Source: a phage
DNA: 51,253 nt
Sequence record: NC_105436.1
Strand: one strand, 5' to 3'
The notes under the pieces are model-generated. The model was not told where the DNA came from. It worked only from the letters and a program-made list of their open reading frames with translations, and ran no database searches. Of this stretch, positions 1 through 7,088 are shown in pieces (position 1 is the first letter of the stretch; each line of letters begins with the position of its first letter). The translations under genes were made by a program, and so were the position numbers.

Positions 1-1
1 A

Positions 2-727
2 ATGGCTAAAGATATTTTAGATAAAGACACCCATGACGCATTCGTTAGCTTTGAGCAGTTGGAGAGAGAAACGTTTATAGGGAATGCCCTTGCAACTGGA
101 GGCCATTACCAGGCAGTAAAGCCAAATCAATATTATAAGGTAAGCGGCAACAGATACGCTGGAAGCACCACGCCGGACGTTGTGCGCGATATGTGGAGCA
201 CGCCTCAAGAGATCGTGGAGTGGATGGAATCAGAATTTGGTGAATACGATCTCGACGCGGCAGCAAGCCAGGAAAACGCAGTTTGCGAGAAGTTCTATAG
301 CAAGGAAACAAACTGCTTAAAGCGTTGGTGGGGTAGCAACAAGCACGTATGGCTTAACCCGCCGTACAGCAACCCAACTCCATTTATCAAGAAAGCAATT
401 GAGCAAATGGAGCACAACAACCAAATTGATGTTTTGTTGCCAGCCGACAACTCTACAGCATGGTTTTATGAGGCGCAGAAAAACGCGGCTGAAATCATCT
501 GGATCACTGGCGAGGTTTACGAAGAGGGTGGAGTAGAATACTCCCGCACCGGAAGAATCGCCTTTGTGTCTGGATTGACTGGCGAGCCTGTACAGGGCAA
601 CAACAAGGGGAGCGTGATTTTTGTCATGCGAAAACTTAAAGAAGGCGAGGAGCAGAAAACGCGATACGTTAAGATCAGCGATATTTGCCCTTCTGTAACC
701 GAACGCCGCGCGCGCAAACGGAGCTAA
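2..727 (+). CDS. DNA N6-adenine methyltransferase (phage Dam-like)
   Basis: 241-aa ORF with NPPY motif (motif IV of N6-adenine MTases); RBS and box promoter appear to be supplied by the window end if the genome is circular. Confidence 0.75.
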   Translation: MAKDILDKDTHDAFVSFEQLERETFIGNALATGGHYQAVKPNQYYKVSGNRYAGSTTPDVVRDMWSTPQEIVEWMESEFGEYDLDAAASQENAVCEKFYSKETNCLKRWWGSNKHVWLNPPYSNPTPFIKKAIEQMEHNNQIDVLLPADNSTAWFYEAQKNAAEIIWITGEVYEEGGVEYSRTGRIAFVSGLTGEPVQGNNKGSVIFVMRKLKEGEEQKTRYVKISDICPSVTERRARKRS

Positions 728-731
728 CACG

Positions 732-989
732 ATGAAAAAAGAGAGAAGCGTTTATTTAAATGAAACTGGCGAATGGTTGTTATTTCGCGCTATGGTGTGC
801 GATGCACTTGATAAAAATCCTAACGTGAAAAAGATGATTGATTGCGATCCGTGGGAATTTTCAAGCGCATTAGATATGAGCTTTGAGGAGACAAGAAAAC
901 TCCCGCTTGAAAAATGGCACGAACAAATCAGAAATGACATGCAAGAGTTTGTTGATTCGTGGAATTTTCAGCACGGAATGATCCACTAA
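732..989 (+). CDS. hypothetical protein
   Basis: 85-aa ORF starting 4 nt after the Dam stop; no recognisable motif. Confidence 0.5.
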   Translation: MKKERSVYLNETGEWLLFRAMVCDALDKNPNVKKMIDCDPWEFSSALDMSFEETRKLPLEKWHEQIRNDMQEFVDSWNFQHGMIH

Positions 990-1032
990 TATCATTTTTT
1001 GTTAAAACGCCCGGCATTTTGTCGGGCATAAT
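988..1032 (+). promoter_or_regulatory. box cassette: 21-bp box + hairpin spacer + -10-like CATAAT
   Basis: ATCATTTTTTGTTAAAAC then inverted repeat GCCCGGC...GTCGGGC, then CATAAT 22 nt after TTGTTA. Confidence 0.55.
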
Positions 1033-1058
1033 TATTTCATAGAAACGAACGTGAGGAA

Positions 1059-1244
1059 ATGAAAATGGTAGTATATAGCAAGAAAGCATTTGACCAGGCG
1101 CAACAAACCGCACGCGAGGCGGTAAAAGGTGGAACGAAAAACAATATGCAGCTTGATTGGGGCGCTGCAATGATTCTACTTCGCGTTGCATATGGTCACT
1201 ACCCATTAGAATTTGCGGAGGCATATTATAAGCATGAAGGTTGA
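1059..1244 (+). CDS. hypothetical protein
   Basis: 61-aa ORF preceded by box cassette and conserved leader; alternative ATG at 1065 has better RBS spacing. Confidence 0.5.
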   Translation: MKMVVYSKKAFDQAQQTAREAVKGGTKNNMQLDWGAAMILLRVAYGHYPLEFAEAYYKHEG

Positions 1245-1476
1245 GCAAGGTAGAGATGCGGTATGGAATCACGCTAAAGAATGCGGAATAGCCGACGATA
1301 TAAAGAAGATCGCGCAATACTTTGATATTGCAGATGTGAGCATAATTAGCGGCGATAAGATGACTTTCCTCAAGGAAAGGCCGCGAAAAATGGTAAGAGT
1401 TCCAGCAGTTCCAACAAAAATTGATTTCAAAGAGGCAATGGCTAAAATCCGAGAGCCTCGCAAATATTATAAATGA
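1234..1476 (+). CDS. hypothetical protein
   Basis: ORF starting at internal ATG 1234, overlapping the upstream stop by 11 nt. Confidence 0.45.
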   Translation: MKVEQGRDAVWNHAKECGIADDIKKIAQYFDIADVSIISGDKMTFLKERPRKMVRVPAVPTKIDFKEAMAKIREPRKYYK

Positions 1477-1570
1477 GGATAGTTATCATGTGGCGCTTGT
1501 TTGTTCTACCGTTACCAGTTATCATCGCTGTTACAGTTATGTACCATATAGTAATGAGATAGGTATCAGA

Positions 1571-2686
1571 ATGAAAAATGTAAAAATTACAGATGAGCAA
1601 TTCAAGATCGAACGGGCGGCAGGTAAGACATATAAACAGATCGCTCAAGAGTACGGAATGAATGTGAGAAGCGTCGAGCGTCGCGCGGCGCGCCTTGCAA
1701 AACAAGGACAGCTATCAACCATCGGAGCGCCTGGTTTTGGTGTTCATGGTGAGTCAGTAATGACTGACAAAGAAGGAAATATAATCCTCAAGTGGACCAA
1801 AACCAGCAAGGATAAAGAGCAATTAGAGGCATTGATGCGCGCAGCAATGGAGGCGTTTAGCGAGGAAGTGCCGCGATTAGATCCAGTTCCATTGCAGGAG
1901 CGTAATTATAATGAAACGCTTTCATTGTATCCGATCTTTGACATGCACTTAGGCGCTATGGCCCATAAGCACGAATGCGGCGAAAATTGGGATACTGCGA
2001 CGGCAGAGCGCGTTATGAATAACTTTATCGACTATGCTTTGATGTGCGCGCCGGACAGCGAAAAGGCTGTTATCCTGATTGGTGGAGATATGCTGCATAG
2101 CGACGGCCTGGAGGCGGTGACACCTGCAAGCGGTCACGTACTTGATCAAGATAGCCGATATGCAAAATTGGTTTACGTTGCAATACGTGCAATGCGCCGC
2201 GCAATTAATAAAATGCTGTTAAAGCATAAACATGTTGAGGTCCAGATCGTAGAGGGGAATCACGACCAATCAGGAATGATTTGGCTACGCGCAGCAATGG
2301 CGGCAGCATATGAGAACGATCCGCGCGTTTACGTTGATGTTTCTCCTCGCGTTGTTCACCACACGCAATACGGAAAAACTTTCCTTGCGTACCATCACGG
2401 GCACACAGTGCGTAAACCTGAGACTTTGCTAATGATGTGCGCGTCAGATTGGCGGGAGGACTTCGGAAACTCAAAAACGATGTATGCGCACGTAGGGCAC
2501 TGGCATCACCAGACTGTGACGGAAACGTCGCTTGGCATCGTGGAGGTGCATAGCACCCTGGCGGCAAAAGACGCATACGCCGCGCGCGGTGGCTGGAGAT
2601 CTCGACGCCGTGCAGCGGTTATCATTTACGACAAAGAGCATGGAGAAGTTGGGCGATTTGTTCACTATCCAGAAATGATGAATTGA
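1571..2686 (+). CDS. HTH domain fused to calcineurin-like metallophosphoesterase
   Basis: Start taken at ATG 1571 (MKNVKITDEQ); N-terminal helix-turn-helix-like segment (KTYKQIAQEYGMNVRSVERRAARLAKQ); phosphoesterase motifs D-x-H (FDMHLG), GDxxD (GGDMLHSDG), GNHD (EGNHDQ), and His clusters HHGH and GHWHH. Confidence 0.65.
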   Translation: MKNVKITDEQFKIERAAGKTYKQIAQEYGMNVRSVERRAARLAKQGQLSTIGAPGFGVHGESVMTDKEGNIILKWTKTSKDKEQLEALMRAAMEAFSEEVPRLDPVPLQERNYNETLSLYPIFDMHLGAMAHKHECGENWDTATAERVMNNFIDYALMCAPDSEKAVILIGGDMLHSDGLEAVTPASGHVLDQDSRYAKLVYVAIRAMRRAINKMLLKHKHVEVQIVEGNHDQSGMIWLRAAMAAAYENDPRVYVDVSPRVVHHTQYGKTFLAYHHGHTVRKPETLLMMCASDWREDFGNSKTMYAHVGHWHHQTVTETSLGIVEVHSTLAAKDAYAARGGWRSRRRAAVIIYDKEHGEVGRFVHYPEMMN

Positions 2687-2733
2687 TGAATTTTTATTTA
2701 AATCAATGACAAATTAAATCAAAAACTTGCAAA

Positions 2734-2761
2734 GGGGCGGCGTTTGTCGCCTCTTTTTTTT
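2734..2761 (+). terminator. rho-independent terminator candidate
   Basis: GC-rich stem GGGGCGGC/GTCGCCTC followed by T8. Confidence 0.55.
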
Positions 2762-2833
2762 GTTTAAATTTTTATCATGTGCGTTTATTATGCGGTTAAT
2801 ATATTGACTTTTAATTAATATGGAGCATTAAAA

Positions 2834-3049
2834 ATGAAAGATTTTATTAACGCAGCTACCGCCGGATCTGGCGGTTCATCTATCGCAAGCGCCGCTACAG
2901 GTCAGTTAACCATTGCTATTGCCAGCTTTGTTTTAATGGCTGCATTCGGTGCGTGGGGCGCTTACCTTCGCTGGCGTGATAGTAAAAAATTCCACGAGGC
3001 GATAGAAAAAGGTGATATTCAAAAAGCTATTGAGATCAGGGGCAAGTAA
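2834..3049 (+). CDS. holin
   Basis: 71-aa protein with hydrophobic transmembrane segment and charged C-terminus, immediately upstream of the endolysin with TAATG overlap. Confidence 0.7.
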
Positions 3050-3540
3050 TGAGCATAAAGAACAGGGTAGCGGCTGCGGCATTTGGCGTTGCGGTTGCCT
3101 TGACTTCTCCACTTCTTGAAGAGATCGAAGGGGTAAGATACAAGCCATACAAAGATATTGCTGGAGTATGGACGGTTTGCGCAGGAATCACCGGACCAGA
3201 TGTTATCCTGGGGAAAACGTACACTAAAAAAGAGTGTGATGCTTTGTTGGCTAAACATATCCAGGTTGCTAAAAAAGAAGTTGACAAGCAGGTTAAGGTT
3301 GACATTCCTGATAGTATGCGTGCAGCAATGTACTCATTCACTTATAATGCAGGTGTGGGAGCTTTCAGAAATTCAACAATGCTGAAACTCATCAACCAGG
3401 GGAAATTAAACGAGGCTTGCGATCAGCTTTATCGTTGGACGTATTACCATAACCCCAAAACAGGAAAGCGCGAGAAGTCTAAAGGCTTACTTAACAGGCG
3501 CAAGGTCGAATACAAATATTGCACGATGGATCTGAAATGA
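3049..3540 (+). CDS. SAR endolysin (T4-lysozyme/GH24 family)
   Basis: N-terminal signal-anchor-release-like hydrophobic segment; E-x8-D-x5-T catalytic triad ([19 protein letters not shown]). Confidence 0.8.
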
Positions 3541-3932
3541 TGAAGAAATTTTTACTTACACCAATCGCAATGGCGGTGATCTTGTCTGGATGTTCAACCG
3601 TTACGCCACTGACCGGATTAATCGGCAGTAAGCCGGAAATCACAGCACAGGCTGGCGCGGAGAACGTGAAGCAGACAGTTGGCATTACAGCAAAGCAGGA
3701 CGCCAGCACAAAACAGGAAACCACAATAAAGGAATCTGCGGTTGACAAGGTGGACACGTCCAGCAAGAAGGATTTCACAACATCAACCATTCAGGCCAAT
3801 ACCATCAAGGCAGACAAAATTCAGGTCGTGCAGGGTAATAACGGCAGATGGTACGATCCGGTAATCATATGCGTGGTTGTGTTAATTGTGCTGATTTGTC
3901 TTTACTGGAGAGAAAAGAAAAAGGAGGCTTAA
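3537..3932 (+). CDS. unimolecular spanin (outer-membrane lipoprotein with C-terminal TMD)
   Basis: Lipobox LSGC after signal peptide plus C-terminal transmembrane helix ([16 protein letters not shown]); ATGA overlap with the endolysin stop; matches the T1-type u-spanin architecture. Confidence 0.7.
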
Positions 3933-3946
3933 TGCCTCCTTTATTT

Positions 3947-4171
3947 TTATGCGTCGGGCCACATATGAGTTTCGTTTGTTGGCTTGTTCGATTCGTCGTA
4001 CTGCCTTACTTCAATGCTGCAAGTGTCGCCATACATTTCTGCAATCTTGCGCTCATTTTCAACAGCCGATTGCTCACTCCATCCAAAATCCCTGTCATAA
4101 ATTGTCGGGATTTCAGCAGAAGATCCGTTGTCATGATTATATACGCGAACTACTAAAAACTTGCTGGACAT
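3947..4171 (-). CDS. hypothetical protein
   Basis: 74-aa ORF with box cassette and conserved leader upstream on the minus strand. Confidence 0.5.
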   Translation of the reverse strand: MSSKFLVVRVYNHDNGSSAEIPTIYDRDFGWSEQSAVENERKIAEMYGDTCSIEVRQYDESNKPTNETHMWPDA

Positions 4172-4205
4172 AATTTTACCTTTTGGTTGTTTCGTTTCGA
4201 TGAAA

Positions 4206-4253
4206 CAAATATACCCGACACTAGGCCGGGCGTTTTAACAAAAAATGCTATTC
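4206..4253 (-). promoter_or_regulatory. box cassette (minus strand)
   Basis: Minus strand reads ATAGCATTTTTTGTTAAAAC + hairpin + TATATT at 22-nt spacing, then conserved leader. Confidence 0.55.
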
Positions 4254-6371: not shown

Positions 6372-6416
6372 TTTAACGGCCCAATACTACCCCGTTTTGT
6401 CAAAAAGTGCTATTTG
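6372..6416 (-). promoter_or_regulatory. box cassette variant (TTGACA in place of TTGTTA)
   Basis: Minus strand AATAGCACTTTTTGACAAAAC, hairpin GGGCCGT/ACGGCCC with TAAAAT in the loop. Confidence 0.5.
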
Positions 6417-7043: not shown

Positions 7044-7088
7044 ATTATGCCAGGTTTTTACACCTGGCTTTTAACAAAAAGTGCTATT
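7044..7088 (-). promoter_or_regulatory. box cassette (minus strand)
   Basis: Box + hairpin GCCAGG/CCTGGC + CATAAT at 22-nt spacing. Confidence 0.55.

What the first reader, a model, noticed from the sequence alone, without database searches (positions are those of the whole stretch)
1477..2686. HTH-metallophosphoesterase fusion with its own repeat-containing control region
The 372-aa product combines an N-terminal helix-turn-helix-like segment with a complete calcineurin-like phosphoesterase motif set. Unlike its neighbours it has no box cassette; instead the upstream region (1477-1570) has three direct repeats of AGTTAT (TAGTTATCATG, CAGTTATCATCG, ACAGTTATGTACC). A DNA-binding phosphoesterase could be a self-regulating protein phosphatase, a nuclease, or a nucleotide-signal phosphodiesterase; the last would be relevant to cyclic-nucleotide-based host defences, but the sequence alone gives no evidence for that.
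Basis: partly seen in the sequence, partly recalled or inferred. Interest (0 to 1): 0.55.

Follow-up and report, generated by a model that had tools for sequence, protein, structure and literature searches.

The report
T1-like phage HTH-phosphoesterase gene plus micro-ORF
The gene is the common but functionally untested "putative phosphoesterase / DNA repair exonuclease" of T1-like phages, a DNA-binding helix-turn-helix fused to an Mre11/SbcD-like metal-dependent phosphoesterase, and the "repeat-containing control region" in front of it is really a conserved gene for a 24-29-residue membrane peptide.

Summary
The window is a T1-like coliphage (Drexlerviridae, Warwickvirus; 97.7% identical to vB_EcoS-95).

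**The gene.** The ORF at 1571-2686 is real and encodes 371 aa.
- Residues 8-44 form a LuxR/sigma-70-region-4-type HTH.
- Residues 56-98 form an invariant beta-hairpin and helix.
- Residues 114-371 form a metallophosphoesterase with every metal ligand invariant in 135 homologues.

It belongs to PHROG 704. That family occurs in 2030 of 50,697 phage records and is reported as core in 508 of 522 Drexlerviridae. I found no paper that tested its function.

**The upstream region.** The "control region" reading fails.
- 1473/1488-1562 is a small hydrophobic ORF, kept in 41 of 46 T1-like loci with a coding-type substitution pattern.
- The three AGTTAT copies are Val-Ile and Val-Met codons (GTT ATC, GTT ATG). 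All three occur only in this phage and one near-identical relative.
- The likely promoter is a box cassette at 993-1033, and a terminator follows at 2731-2756.

**Context.** The gene closes the helicase/VRR-NUC/Dam operon. In 37 of 37 lambdoid prophage loci a DnaB-like helicase gene follows it.

**Reading.** Most likely a stand-alone, HTH-tethered DNA nuclease of phage DNA metabolism (inferred, confidence about 0.45). Ordinary and already catalogued; interest is low to moderate.

The parts
993..1033 (+). Box cassette: CATTTTTTGTTAAAA (993-1007), a GC-rich hairpin (1009-1027), then CATAAT (1027-1032). It is the likely promoter and boundary element of the transcription unit that ends with the phosphoesterase gene.
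   Evidence: The 15-mer CAYTTTTTGWYAAAA occurs 16 times in the window against 0.41 expected. Three aligned copies share the box, a hairpin and an A/T-rich hexamer. The hairpin is also picked up as terminator-like. Its function is inferred.
1059..1244 (+). First cistron of the unit: 61 aa, unknown function.
   Evidence: ORF; PHROG 2180, E 7e-14; annotated CDS in relatives.
1234..1476 (+). Second cistron: 80 aa, unknown function. Its TGA stop overlaps the ATG at 1473 of the micro-ORF.
   Evidence: PHROG 2817, E 2e-34; annotated CDS in relatives.
1473..1562 (+). Conserved micro-ORF. From ATG 1473 it gives 29 aa (MRIVIMWRLFVLPLPVIIAVTVMYHIVMR). The start conserved across lineages is ATG 1488, giving 24 aa, with GAGGA 8 nt upstream. 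It is predicted to be a single-pass membrane peptide. It contains all three AGTTAT copies (1481, 1517, 1535).
   Evidence: It is present in frame and in register in 41 of 46 T1-like loci, with 31 distinct DNA versions. Summed column entropy by codon position 1/2/3 is 24.7/15.4/31.3. It is annotated as a CDS in OR896819. It has no PHROG family.
1571..2686 (+). HTH-metallophosphoesterase CDS (371 aa plus stop), a member of PHROG 704.
1592..1702 (+). Residues 8-44: three-helix HTH of the LuxR/GerE or sigma-70-region-4 type.
1736..1864 (+). Residues 56-98: beta-hairpin plus helix. G60, S62, W75 and K77 are invariant across the family. No recognisable known fold.
1910..2683 (+). Residues 114-371: binuclear metallophosphoesterase core. 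The loop at residues 180-193 (TPxSxHxLD) is invariant but modelled with low confidence.
2731..2766 (+). Intrinsic terminator (11-bp stem followed by a T-run) that closes the unit. The lysis cassette starts at 2834.
   Evidence: holin PHROG 2877 at 2834-3049.

Best explanation
The gene encodes a stand-alone, Mre11/SbcD-like, two-metal phosphodiesterase. An N-terminal LuxR/sigma-70-region-4-type helix-turn-helix holds it on DNA. It most likely cuts or trims DNA (endo- or exonuclease) as part of the phage's own DNA metabolism: replication- or recombination-linked end processing, or breakdown of host DNA. It needs no Rad50/SbcC-type partner.

In this phage it is the last cistron of the rightward DNA-metabolism transcription unit (helicase, VRR-NUC, Dam, small genes). 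It is probably transcribed from the box cassette at 993-1033 and terminated at 2731-2756. Its translation follows directly on that of a tiny membrane-peptide gene.

Shown here: the architecture, the conserved catalytic residues, the fold class, the operon layout and the coding nature of the upstream region.

Inferred: DNA as the substrate, nuclease activity, and the role in replication or recombination.
For: - **Catalytic residues.** All metal-ligand and catalytic residues are invariant in 135 homologues sharing 34-85% identity with it, so this is an active enzyme and not a scaffold.
- **Sequence.** The only solved metallophosphoesterases touched by the family profiles are T. maritima Mre11/SbcD and the PdeM-type 'Nuclease MPE'. 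In the Mre11/SbcD alignment, motif I (TDlHLGm against SDWHLGV) and motif II (GDfLHsD against GDLLHS) line up. E-values are 0.3-1.1, so this is weak. NCBIfam's best hit is the PdeM endonuclease, E 0.004.
- **DNA-binding domain.** A fused HTH is present.
- **Context.**
  - Here the gene ends the helicase/VRR-NUC/Dam operon.
  - In 37 of 37 lambdoid prophage loci a DnaB-like helicase follows on the same strand, 28-34 nt after the last aligned codon in 34 of them, and an O-like initiator lies upstream in 36.
  - In other lineages it sits beside PolA, an Enc34-type ssDNA-binding protein, PD-(D/E)XK, ERF or SSB genes.
- **Core gene.** It is present in 508 of 522 Drexlerviridae (PMC13164509).
Against: - No biochemical or genetic test of any family member was found.
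- Sequence similarity to Mre11/SbcD is not significant.
- In several lineages the gene lies next to lysis or terminase genes, or inside a tail-gene cluster, not among replication genes.
- No neighbour is conserved across 83 diverse loci.
- There is no Mre11 capping domain and no Rad50/SbcC partner.
Confidence: 0.45

Rival explanations
1. End-healing or nucleotide-pool phosphoesterase. The enzyme removes 3'-phosphate or 2',3'-cyclic phosphate ends from damaged DNA or RNA, or hydrolyses (deoxy)nucleotides, and works with the phage kinases. It does not cleave DNA backbones.
For: - In Drexlerviridae that lack the SH3 gene, the genes most often found directly after this one are polynucleotide kinase and dNMP kinase (PMC13164509).
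- This phage family also carries a PNK-like gene and a cytidylate-kinase-like gene.
- One relative is followed by a dGTP-diphosphohydrolase-like gene.
Against: - A sequence-type HTH fused to the enzyme is hard to explain for a nucleotide-pool enzyme.
- The kinase neighbours are found only in part of one family, and no neighbour is conserved across the wider protein family.
Confidence: 0.15
2. Transcription factor first. The HTH binds phage promoters (for example the late/lysis promoter just downstream, or the 16 box cassettes) and controls the early-to-late switch. The enzyme domain is secondary or acts as a sensor.
For: - The HTH is of the LuxR/sigma-70-region-4 type.
- The gene abuts the lysis cassette in T1-like phages, Dhillonvirus and two metagenomic lineages.
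- A 15-bp box recurs 16 times in this genome, and no binding protein has been assigned to it.
Against: - Across the family the HTH is the least conserved part, whereas the catalytic residues and the hairpin are invariant.
- Some members have two HTHs, and some apparently have none.
- In lambdoid prophages the gene sits in the replication module, far from the late genes.
Confidence: 0.12
3. Counter-defence phosphodiesterase that destroys cyclic (oligo)nucleotide or other nucleotide alarm signals (CBASS, Pycsar, type III CRISPR, Thoeris).
For: - The gene is expressed with early or middle genes.
- In Jerseyvirus it lies in a small opposite-strand island with a superinfection-immunity-like membrane protein and an anti-repressor.
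Against: - It is a persistent core gene (508 of 522 Drexlerviridae), not patchy like known anti-defence genes.
- The HTH has no role in this model.
- Nuclease-type folds rank higher.
- There is no match to any PADLOC defence-system model. That is expected for an anti-defence gene, so it is uninformative.
- No literature link was found.
Confidence: 0.1
4. Ser/Thr/Tyr protein phosphatase like lambda phosphatase (NinI) that acts on host or phage phosphoproteins.
For: It belongs to the same superfamily. In lambdoid phages the lambda-phosphatase gene lies in the nin region between the replication genes and the late genes, which is a broadly similar position.
Against: - Motif II is GDxLHxD, not GDxVDRG, and motif III is GNHD, not GNHE.
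- No Pfam or NCBIfam PPP model matches.
Confidence: 0.04

Closest known systems
PHROG 704 ('DNA repair exonuclease'), i.e. the 'putative phosphoesterase' of T1-like phages
   Same: Full-length profile match, E 2e-148. Annotated proteins that are 99.7% identical exist, for example in phage Kalemo. The position, upstream of holin-endolysin-spanin, matches the published Drexlerviridae core module.
   Different: Nothing differs; this is a member. The family name is an annotation transferred from similarity to SbcD, not a tested function.
Mre11 / SbcD nucleases (PDB 3qg5, 7dog, 2q8u)
   Different: Sequence identity is 14-16% and there is no significant sequence match. There is no capping domain. 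No Rad50/SbcC ATPase is encoded in the genome or next to the gene in relatives. An N-terminal HTH and a hairpin module are added.
PdeM / 'Nuclease MPE' of the bacterial Lig-Lhr-MPE-Exo repair clusters (PDB 6nvo)
   Same: A stand-alone metallophosphoesterase that acts on DNA without Rad50. It gives the best NCBIfam hit (TIGR04123, E 0.004) and a weak profile hit in the PDB.
   Different: The hits cover only about 25 residues around motif III and lie far below the family cut-off (16.6 against 150 bits). There is no ligase or Lhr neighbour. PdeM has no HTH.
PolD small subunit DP1 and the B-subunits of eukaryotic polymerases
   Different: There is no OB domain and no DP2-like catalytic partner. 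The resemblance is at fold level only.
Lambda Ser/Thr phosphatase (NinI) and class III cyclic-nucleotide phosphodiesterases (Rv0805/CpdA)
   Same: Same superfamily and the same two-metal chemistry.
   Different: The PPP signature motifs are absent, and the structural scores are lower (9.6 and 11.7).

Membership tests
Calcineurin-like metallophosphoesterase superfamily (Pfam PF00149 / PF12850) | Five motifs that supply the ligands of a two-metal site: DxH, GDxx[DH], GNH[DE], H, GHxH. | tested here: met
   D124/H126, D173/H176, N230/H231/D232, H276/H278 and H310/H312 are invariant in 40- and 135-sequence alignments.
Calcineurin-like metallophosphoesterase superfamily (Pfam PF00149 / PF12850) | Four-layer alpha/beta sandwich fold. 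| tested here: met
Calcineurin-like metallophosphoesterase superfamily (Pfam PF00149 / PF12850) | Score above Pfam's gathering threshold. | tested here: not met
   16.9 bits against a cut-off of 21.5 for this protein. Some relatives pass, for example P0127 at 27.0 bits. The family is a divergent branch of the superfamily.
PHROG 704 | Full-length match to the family profile. | tested here: met
   E 2.2e-148, residues 5-370 against profile positions 3-389 of 390.
Mre11/SbcD nucleases | Catalytic core with GDxxH in motif II and GNHD in motif III. | tested here: met
Mre11/SbcD nucleases | C-terminal capping domain. | tested here: not met
Mre11/SbcD nucleases | Rad50/SbcC ATPase partner, usually encoded next to it. 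| tested here: not met
   None among the 89 genes of the near-identical annotated genome. No conserved neighbour in 83 diverse loci.
Mre11/SbcD nucleases | Mn2+-dependent exo/endonuclease activity on DNA. | not testable with these tools
   Needs purified protein.
LuxR/GerE and sigma-70 region 4 HTH domains | Helix-turn-helix fold with matching sequence profile. | tested here: met
PPP protein phosphatases (lambda phosphatase type) | GDxVDRG and GNHE motifs. | tested here: not met
Class III cyclic-nucleotide phosphodiesterases (CpdA/Rv0805/Icc) | Closest relationship to this clade, and activity on cyclic nucleotides. | tested here: inconclusive

The most novel reading that the evidence does not exclude
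PHROG 704 would be a previously unrecognised class of replication-associated nuclease. It would be an Mre11-like enzyme that works without Rad50 and is aimed at DNA by its own HTH. It would be functionally coupled to the phage replicative helicase: the two genes are adjacent in 37 of 37 lambdoid prophage loci and share an operon in T1-like phages. For example, it could create or process the DNA ends that start recombination-dependent replication, or carry out T1's classical host-DNA breakdown. In enterobacterial lineages it would be co-translated with a 24-29-aa membrane peptide that places or restrains it. The family occurs in about 4% of sequenced phages, so this would assign a role to thousands of 'hypothetical' genes.
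Probability: 0.2. Interest if true: 0.55.

Novelty: already known. Interest (0 to 1): 0.27.

Why it matters
This protein family is among the more widespread phage genes with no tested function. It has 2030 matching phage records, 4628 cluster representatives at 50% identity, and is a core gene of Drexlerviridae. Finding out what it does would improve the annotation of many genomes of therapeutic and contaminant phages.

Two practical corrections follow from this work. The RefSeq start of the vB_EcoS-95 gene (398 aa) is too far upstream and overprints a real micro-ORF. That conserved membrane micro-protein is missing from PHROGs and from many annotations.

Nothing here points to a new kind of system.

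Tried and rejected
- **PDB by sequence.** The single protein gave only chance hits. Family profiles gave HTH proteins and non-significant Mre11/PdeM hits.
- **PADLOC.** No match.
- **Rfam on 900-3000.** Only sub-threshold chance hits: MicX at 25.8 bits against a gathering score of 75 over the terminator, and BTnc060.
- **afdb50 fold library.** Not available.
- **Distant-locus search with the 40-sequence alignment.** Replaced by single-protein scans.
- **Membrane micro-ORF as a family-wide partner.** Rejected. A small hydrophobic ORF lies upstream in T1-like phages. An unannotated 26-aa one lies upstream in Dhillonvirus slur05, and a 59-aa Imm-like protein in Jerseyvirus. In 80 diverse environmental loci only 3 have one, which is likely noise.
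- **An obligate conserved neighbour.** Rejected. The largest neighbour cluster covers 7 of 83 loci.
- **The 398-aa upstream-extended start.** Rejected.
- **Literature.** Seven searches found no experimental work on this protein. One paper treats it only as a landmark of the lysis locus. A link to T1 'gene 2.5' (host-DNA degradation) is my recollection of the older T1 genetics and could not be checked.

Full report
**What the window is.** A megablast of 1-4200 finds 114 phage records that cover at least 80% of it. The best is Escherichia phage vB_EcoS-95 at 97.7% identity (Drexlerviridae, Tempevirinae, Warwickvirus). The 51-kb window is essentially a whole T1-like phage genome.

**The observation: the ORF.** The ORF runs from ATG 1571 to the stop at 2684-2686 and encodes 371 aa. 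The reading frame stays open upstream to 1421. RefSeq starts the vB_EcoS-95 gene at the GTG equivalent to 1490, giving 398 aa. That extension is not conserved: in 38 of 46 T1-like loci an in-frame stop lies 0-6 codons before the ATG. Homologue N-termini also align with MKNVKITDEQ. So 1571 is the start.

**The observation: the upstream region.** The three AGTTAT copies are at 1481, 1517 and 1535, but they do not mark a control region.
- The stretch 1473-1562 is a small ORF, MRIVIMWRLFVLPLPVIIAVTVMYHIVMR. Its first ATG overlaps the TGA of the preceding gene.
- A second ATG at 1488, preceded by GAGGA, is the start shared by other lineages.
- An ORF of 21-31 aa with the pattern P-x8-[MVI]-Y-xx-[IV]-[IV]-M, ending 1-15 nt before the phosphoesterase start, is present in 41 of 46 T1-like loci. 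The phosphoesterases in those loci are only 59-100% identical to this one.
- Across 31 distinct DNA versions of the 23-codon core there are no indels. Summed column entropy by codon position 1/2/3 is 24.7, 15.4 and 31.3, which is the signature of a coding sequence for a hydrophobic peptide.
- One GenBank record already annotates it as a CDS. PHROGs has no family for it.
- The AGTTAT copies are the codon pairs GTT-ATC, GTT-ATC and GTT-ATG. All three occur only here and in vB_EcoS-95. Relatives whose protein is 99.7% identical have lost the middle copy through a synonymous CCA-to-CCC change. More distant phages have none or one.
- Some hexamer occurs three or more times in 3.9% of the 94-nt windows of this genome.
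- No Rfam family matches.

**Transcription unit.** CAYTTTTTGWYAAAA occurs 16 times in the window against 0.41 expected. Each copy aligned here is followed by a GC hairpin and an A/T-rich hexamer. One copy lies at 993-1007, upstream of the 61-aa gene at 1059. None lies between there and 2686. A strong intrinsic terminator sits at 2731-2756, and the holin gene starts at 2834. The phosphoesterase is therefore the fourth and last cistron of a unit made of a 61-aa gene, an 80-aa gene, the micro-ORF and the HTH-phosphoesterase. That unit follows helicase, VRR-NUC and Dam on the same strand. This operon layout is inferred from sequence only.

**The protein: sequence.**
- Pfam gives only sub-threshold hits: Sigma70_r4_2, HTH_28, HTH_23 and Metallophos.
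- PHROG 704 ('DNA repair exonuclease') matches end to end at E 2e-148.
- A full scan of 1.84 billion cluster representatives finds 4628 relatives at E of 0.001 or better, and 1044 at 1e-30 or better. Those listed are mostly 360-420 aa.
- tblastn finds the family in 2030 of 50,697 phage records. These include Drexlerviridae, Dhillonvirus, Kagunavirus, Jerseyvirus, and Vibrio, Rhodobacter, Flavobacterium and Campylobacter phages.
- In alignments of 40 and 135 sequences the canonical metal ligands are invariant: D124, H126, D173, N230, H276/H278, H310 and H312. So are H176, D178 and H231.
- Family-specific positions are also invariant: T184, P185, D192 and R196 in a loop after motif II, and G60, S62, W75 and K77 in the linker module.
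- The HTH segment is the least conserved part. In relatives it still matches Sigma70_r4_2 (E 1.5e-9) and GerE (E 2.4e-8), and the family profile hits GerE 1fse at E 0.006.

**The protein: structure.**
- The AlphaFold model, built on the 135-sequence alignment, has mean pLDDT 83.7 and pTM 0.74. It shows three helices at 8-44, a beta-hairpin at 56-80, a helix at 82-98 and the phosphoesterase sandwich from 114. Only the conserved loop at 180-193 is modelled with low confidence.
- A profile of the catalytic domain alone hits, among all solved metallophosphoesterases, only T. maritima Mre11/SbcD. The hit is not significant (E 1.1), but motifs I and II are in register, with GDfLHsD against GDLLHS.
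- NCBIfam's best hit is the PdeM endonuclease at E 0.004, far below its cut-off.
- The BFVD viral fold library returns only uncharacterised or auto-annotated phage proteins.

**Genomic context elsewhere.**
[quoted passage not shown] It treats the gene as a persistent core gene, without any functional test (PMC13164509).
- E. coli lambdoid prophages (mEp013, mEp010 and relatives) carry a homologue at 64-67% identity in the replication module, in the order cI, cro-like, O-like initiator, variable genes, HTH-phosphoesterase, DnaB-like helicase, NinB.
- In all 37 such loci the helicase gene follows on the same strand. In 34 of them it starts 28-34 nt after the last aligned codon. The genes between the O-like gene and the phosphoesterase vary.
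- Other lineages place it after PolA and an Enc34-type ssDNA-binding protein and before an endolysin. Others place it among PD-(D/E)XK, ERF, helicase and primase genes, after an OB-fold protein, or between the lysis cassette and the terminase (Dhillonvirus).
- It is also found after an endolysin at a prophage end. In Jerseyvirus it sits in a small opposite-strand island inside the tail genes.
- Clustering the neighbours in 83 diverse loci shows no conserved partner.
- The near-identical annotated genome has no Rad50/SbcC-like gene.

**Interpretation.** The enzyme is almost certainly catalytically active and is fused to a DNA-binding domain. Its nearest structural relatives are DNA nucleases. 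It keeps company mainly with replication and recombination genes. I therefore favour a stand-alone, HTH-tethered DNA nuclease that serves phage DNA metabolism (confidence about 0.45). The substrate and the pathway are inferences.

The fold scores do not separate nucleases from small-molecule phosphoesterases, so an end-healing or nucleotide-directed enzyme remains a serious rival (0.15). A primarily regulatory role (0.12) and a signal-degrading counter-defence role (0.10) are not excluded. A lambda-phosphatase-like protein phosphatase is unlikely (0.04), because the PPP motifs are absent.

The protein works like an Mre11/SbcD core. It is not a member of that family, because the capping domain and the Rad50 partner were looked for and not found.

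**The micro-ORF.** It is a genuine, conserved, mostly unannotated gene for a single-pass membrane peptide. In many relatives its stop codon overlaps the phosphoesterase Shine-Dalgarno sequence (TAAGGAG), so translational coupling is likely. Small membrane-protein genes also precede the homologues in Dhillonvirus slur05 (an unannotated 26-aa ORF) and in Jerseyvirus LSPA1 (59 aa, Imm-like). They do not precede the gene in 80 environmental loci. I regard the pairing as a lineage-level habit, not a family-wide two-component system.

**Novelty and score.** Near-identical proteins are already in GenBank under the names 'putative phosphoesterase' and 'DNA repair exonuclease', and the family has a PHROG. 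The finding is therefore already known as an object, and its function is open. The overturned part, a control region that is in fact a coding micro-ORF, is a useful correction to annotation but not a surprise to a phage specialist. Interest 0.27.

Noticed in passing
window 993-1007, 4233-4247, 6395-6409, 7069-7083, 9268, 9774, 11078, 12436, 12899, 14117, 15350, 18361, 27199, 30949, 48687, 51176: A 15-bp box, CAYTTTTTGTTAAAA, occurs 16 times against 0.41 expected. In the three copies aligned on the minus strand, and in the plus-strand copy at 993, it points the same way as the gene that follows. In those four copies it is followed by a GC-rich hairpin and a CATAAT/TATATT-like hexamer. The spacing between TTGTTA and the hexamer (about 22 nt) is too long for a plain sigma-70 promoter. 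It could be a combined terminator and promoter, or the binding site of a phage regulator.
   Followed up: partly
L039-L075 and L082 (lambdoid prophage loci), 35 nt upstream of the phosphoesterase ATG; e.g. L045 3960-4000: The leader [AG]TATACAwwwTGTAAAC-c/a-GGAGGA-wwTAACrTT-ATG is conserved, although at least five different genes precede it. It looks like a conserved regulatory or translation-initiation element that travels with the phosphoesterase-helicase pair.
   Followed up: partly
L039-L075, L082, L172: In all 37 prophage-type loci a DnaB-like helicase gene follows the phosphoesterase gene on the same strand, 28-34 nt after the last aligned codon in 34 of them. An O-like initiator lies 0.4-1.6 kb upstream, with variable cargo (for example anti-repressor genes) in between.
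   Followed up: yes
L001 1990-3186 (NC_048132.1 5941-7137) and protein cluster P0001 (398 aa, 193 members): The RefSeq/GenBank start of this gene in vB_EcoS-95 and many cluster members is set 27 codons too far upstream. It overprints the conserved micro-ORF in another frame.
   Followed up: yes
L085 5845-5925 (Escherichia phage slur05, Dhillonvirus): An unannotated 26-aa hydrophobic ORF (MARKDIWVLAIWTTAAFIGMVICELI) has its own Shine-Dalgarno sequence. It lies between a terminator/promoter-like stretch and the homologous phosphoesterase gene. In Jerseyvirus LSPA1 the corresponding upstream gene is a 59-aa two-helix membrane protein annotated 'immunity to superinfection' (L084 5759-5938).
   Followed up: partly
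(database records, not the window): About 20 'Campylobacter phage' records (for example E6, 49.9 kb) and a 'Streptococcus phage MBBL140' protein are 77-85% identical to this T1-like coliphage gene. These are probably T1-like contaminants or mislabelled records.
   Followed up: no
window 1838-1854 and 2288-2304: A 17-nt direct repeat, CGCGCAGCAATGG[AC]GGC, lies inside the phosphoesterase gene. Both copies encode RAAMEA/RAAMAA, in the linker helix and in the helix after motif III. Probably chance or a small internal similarity.
   Followed up: no
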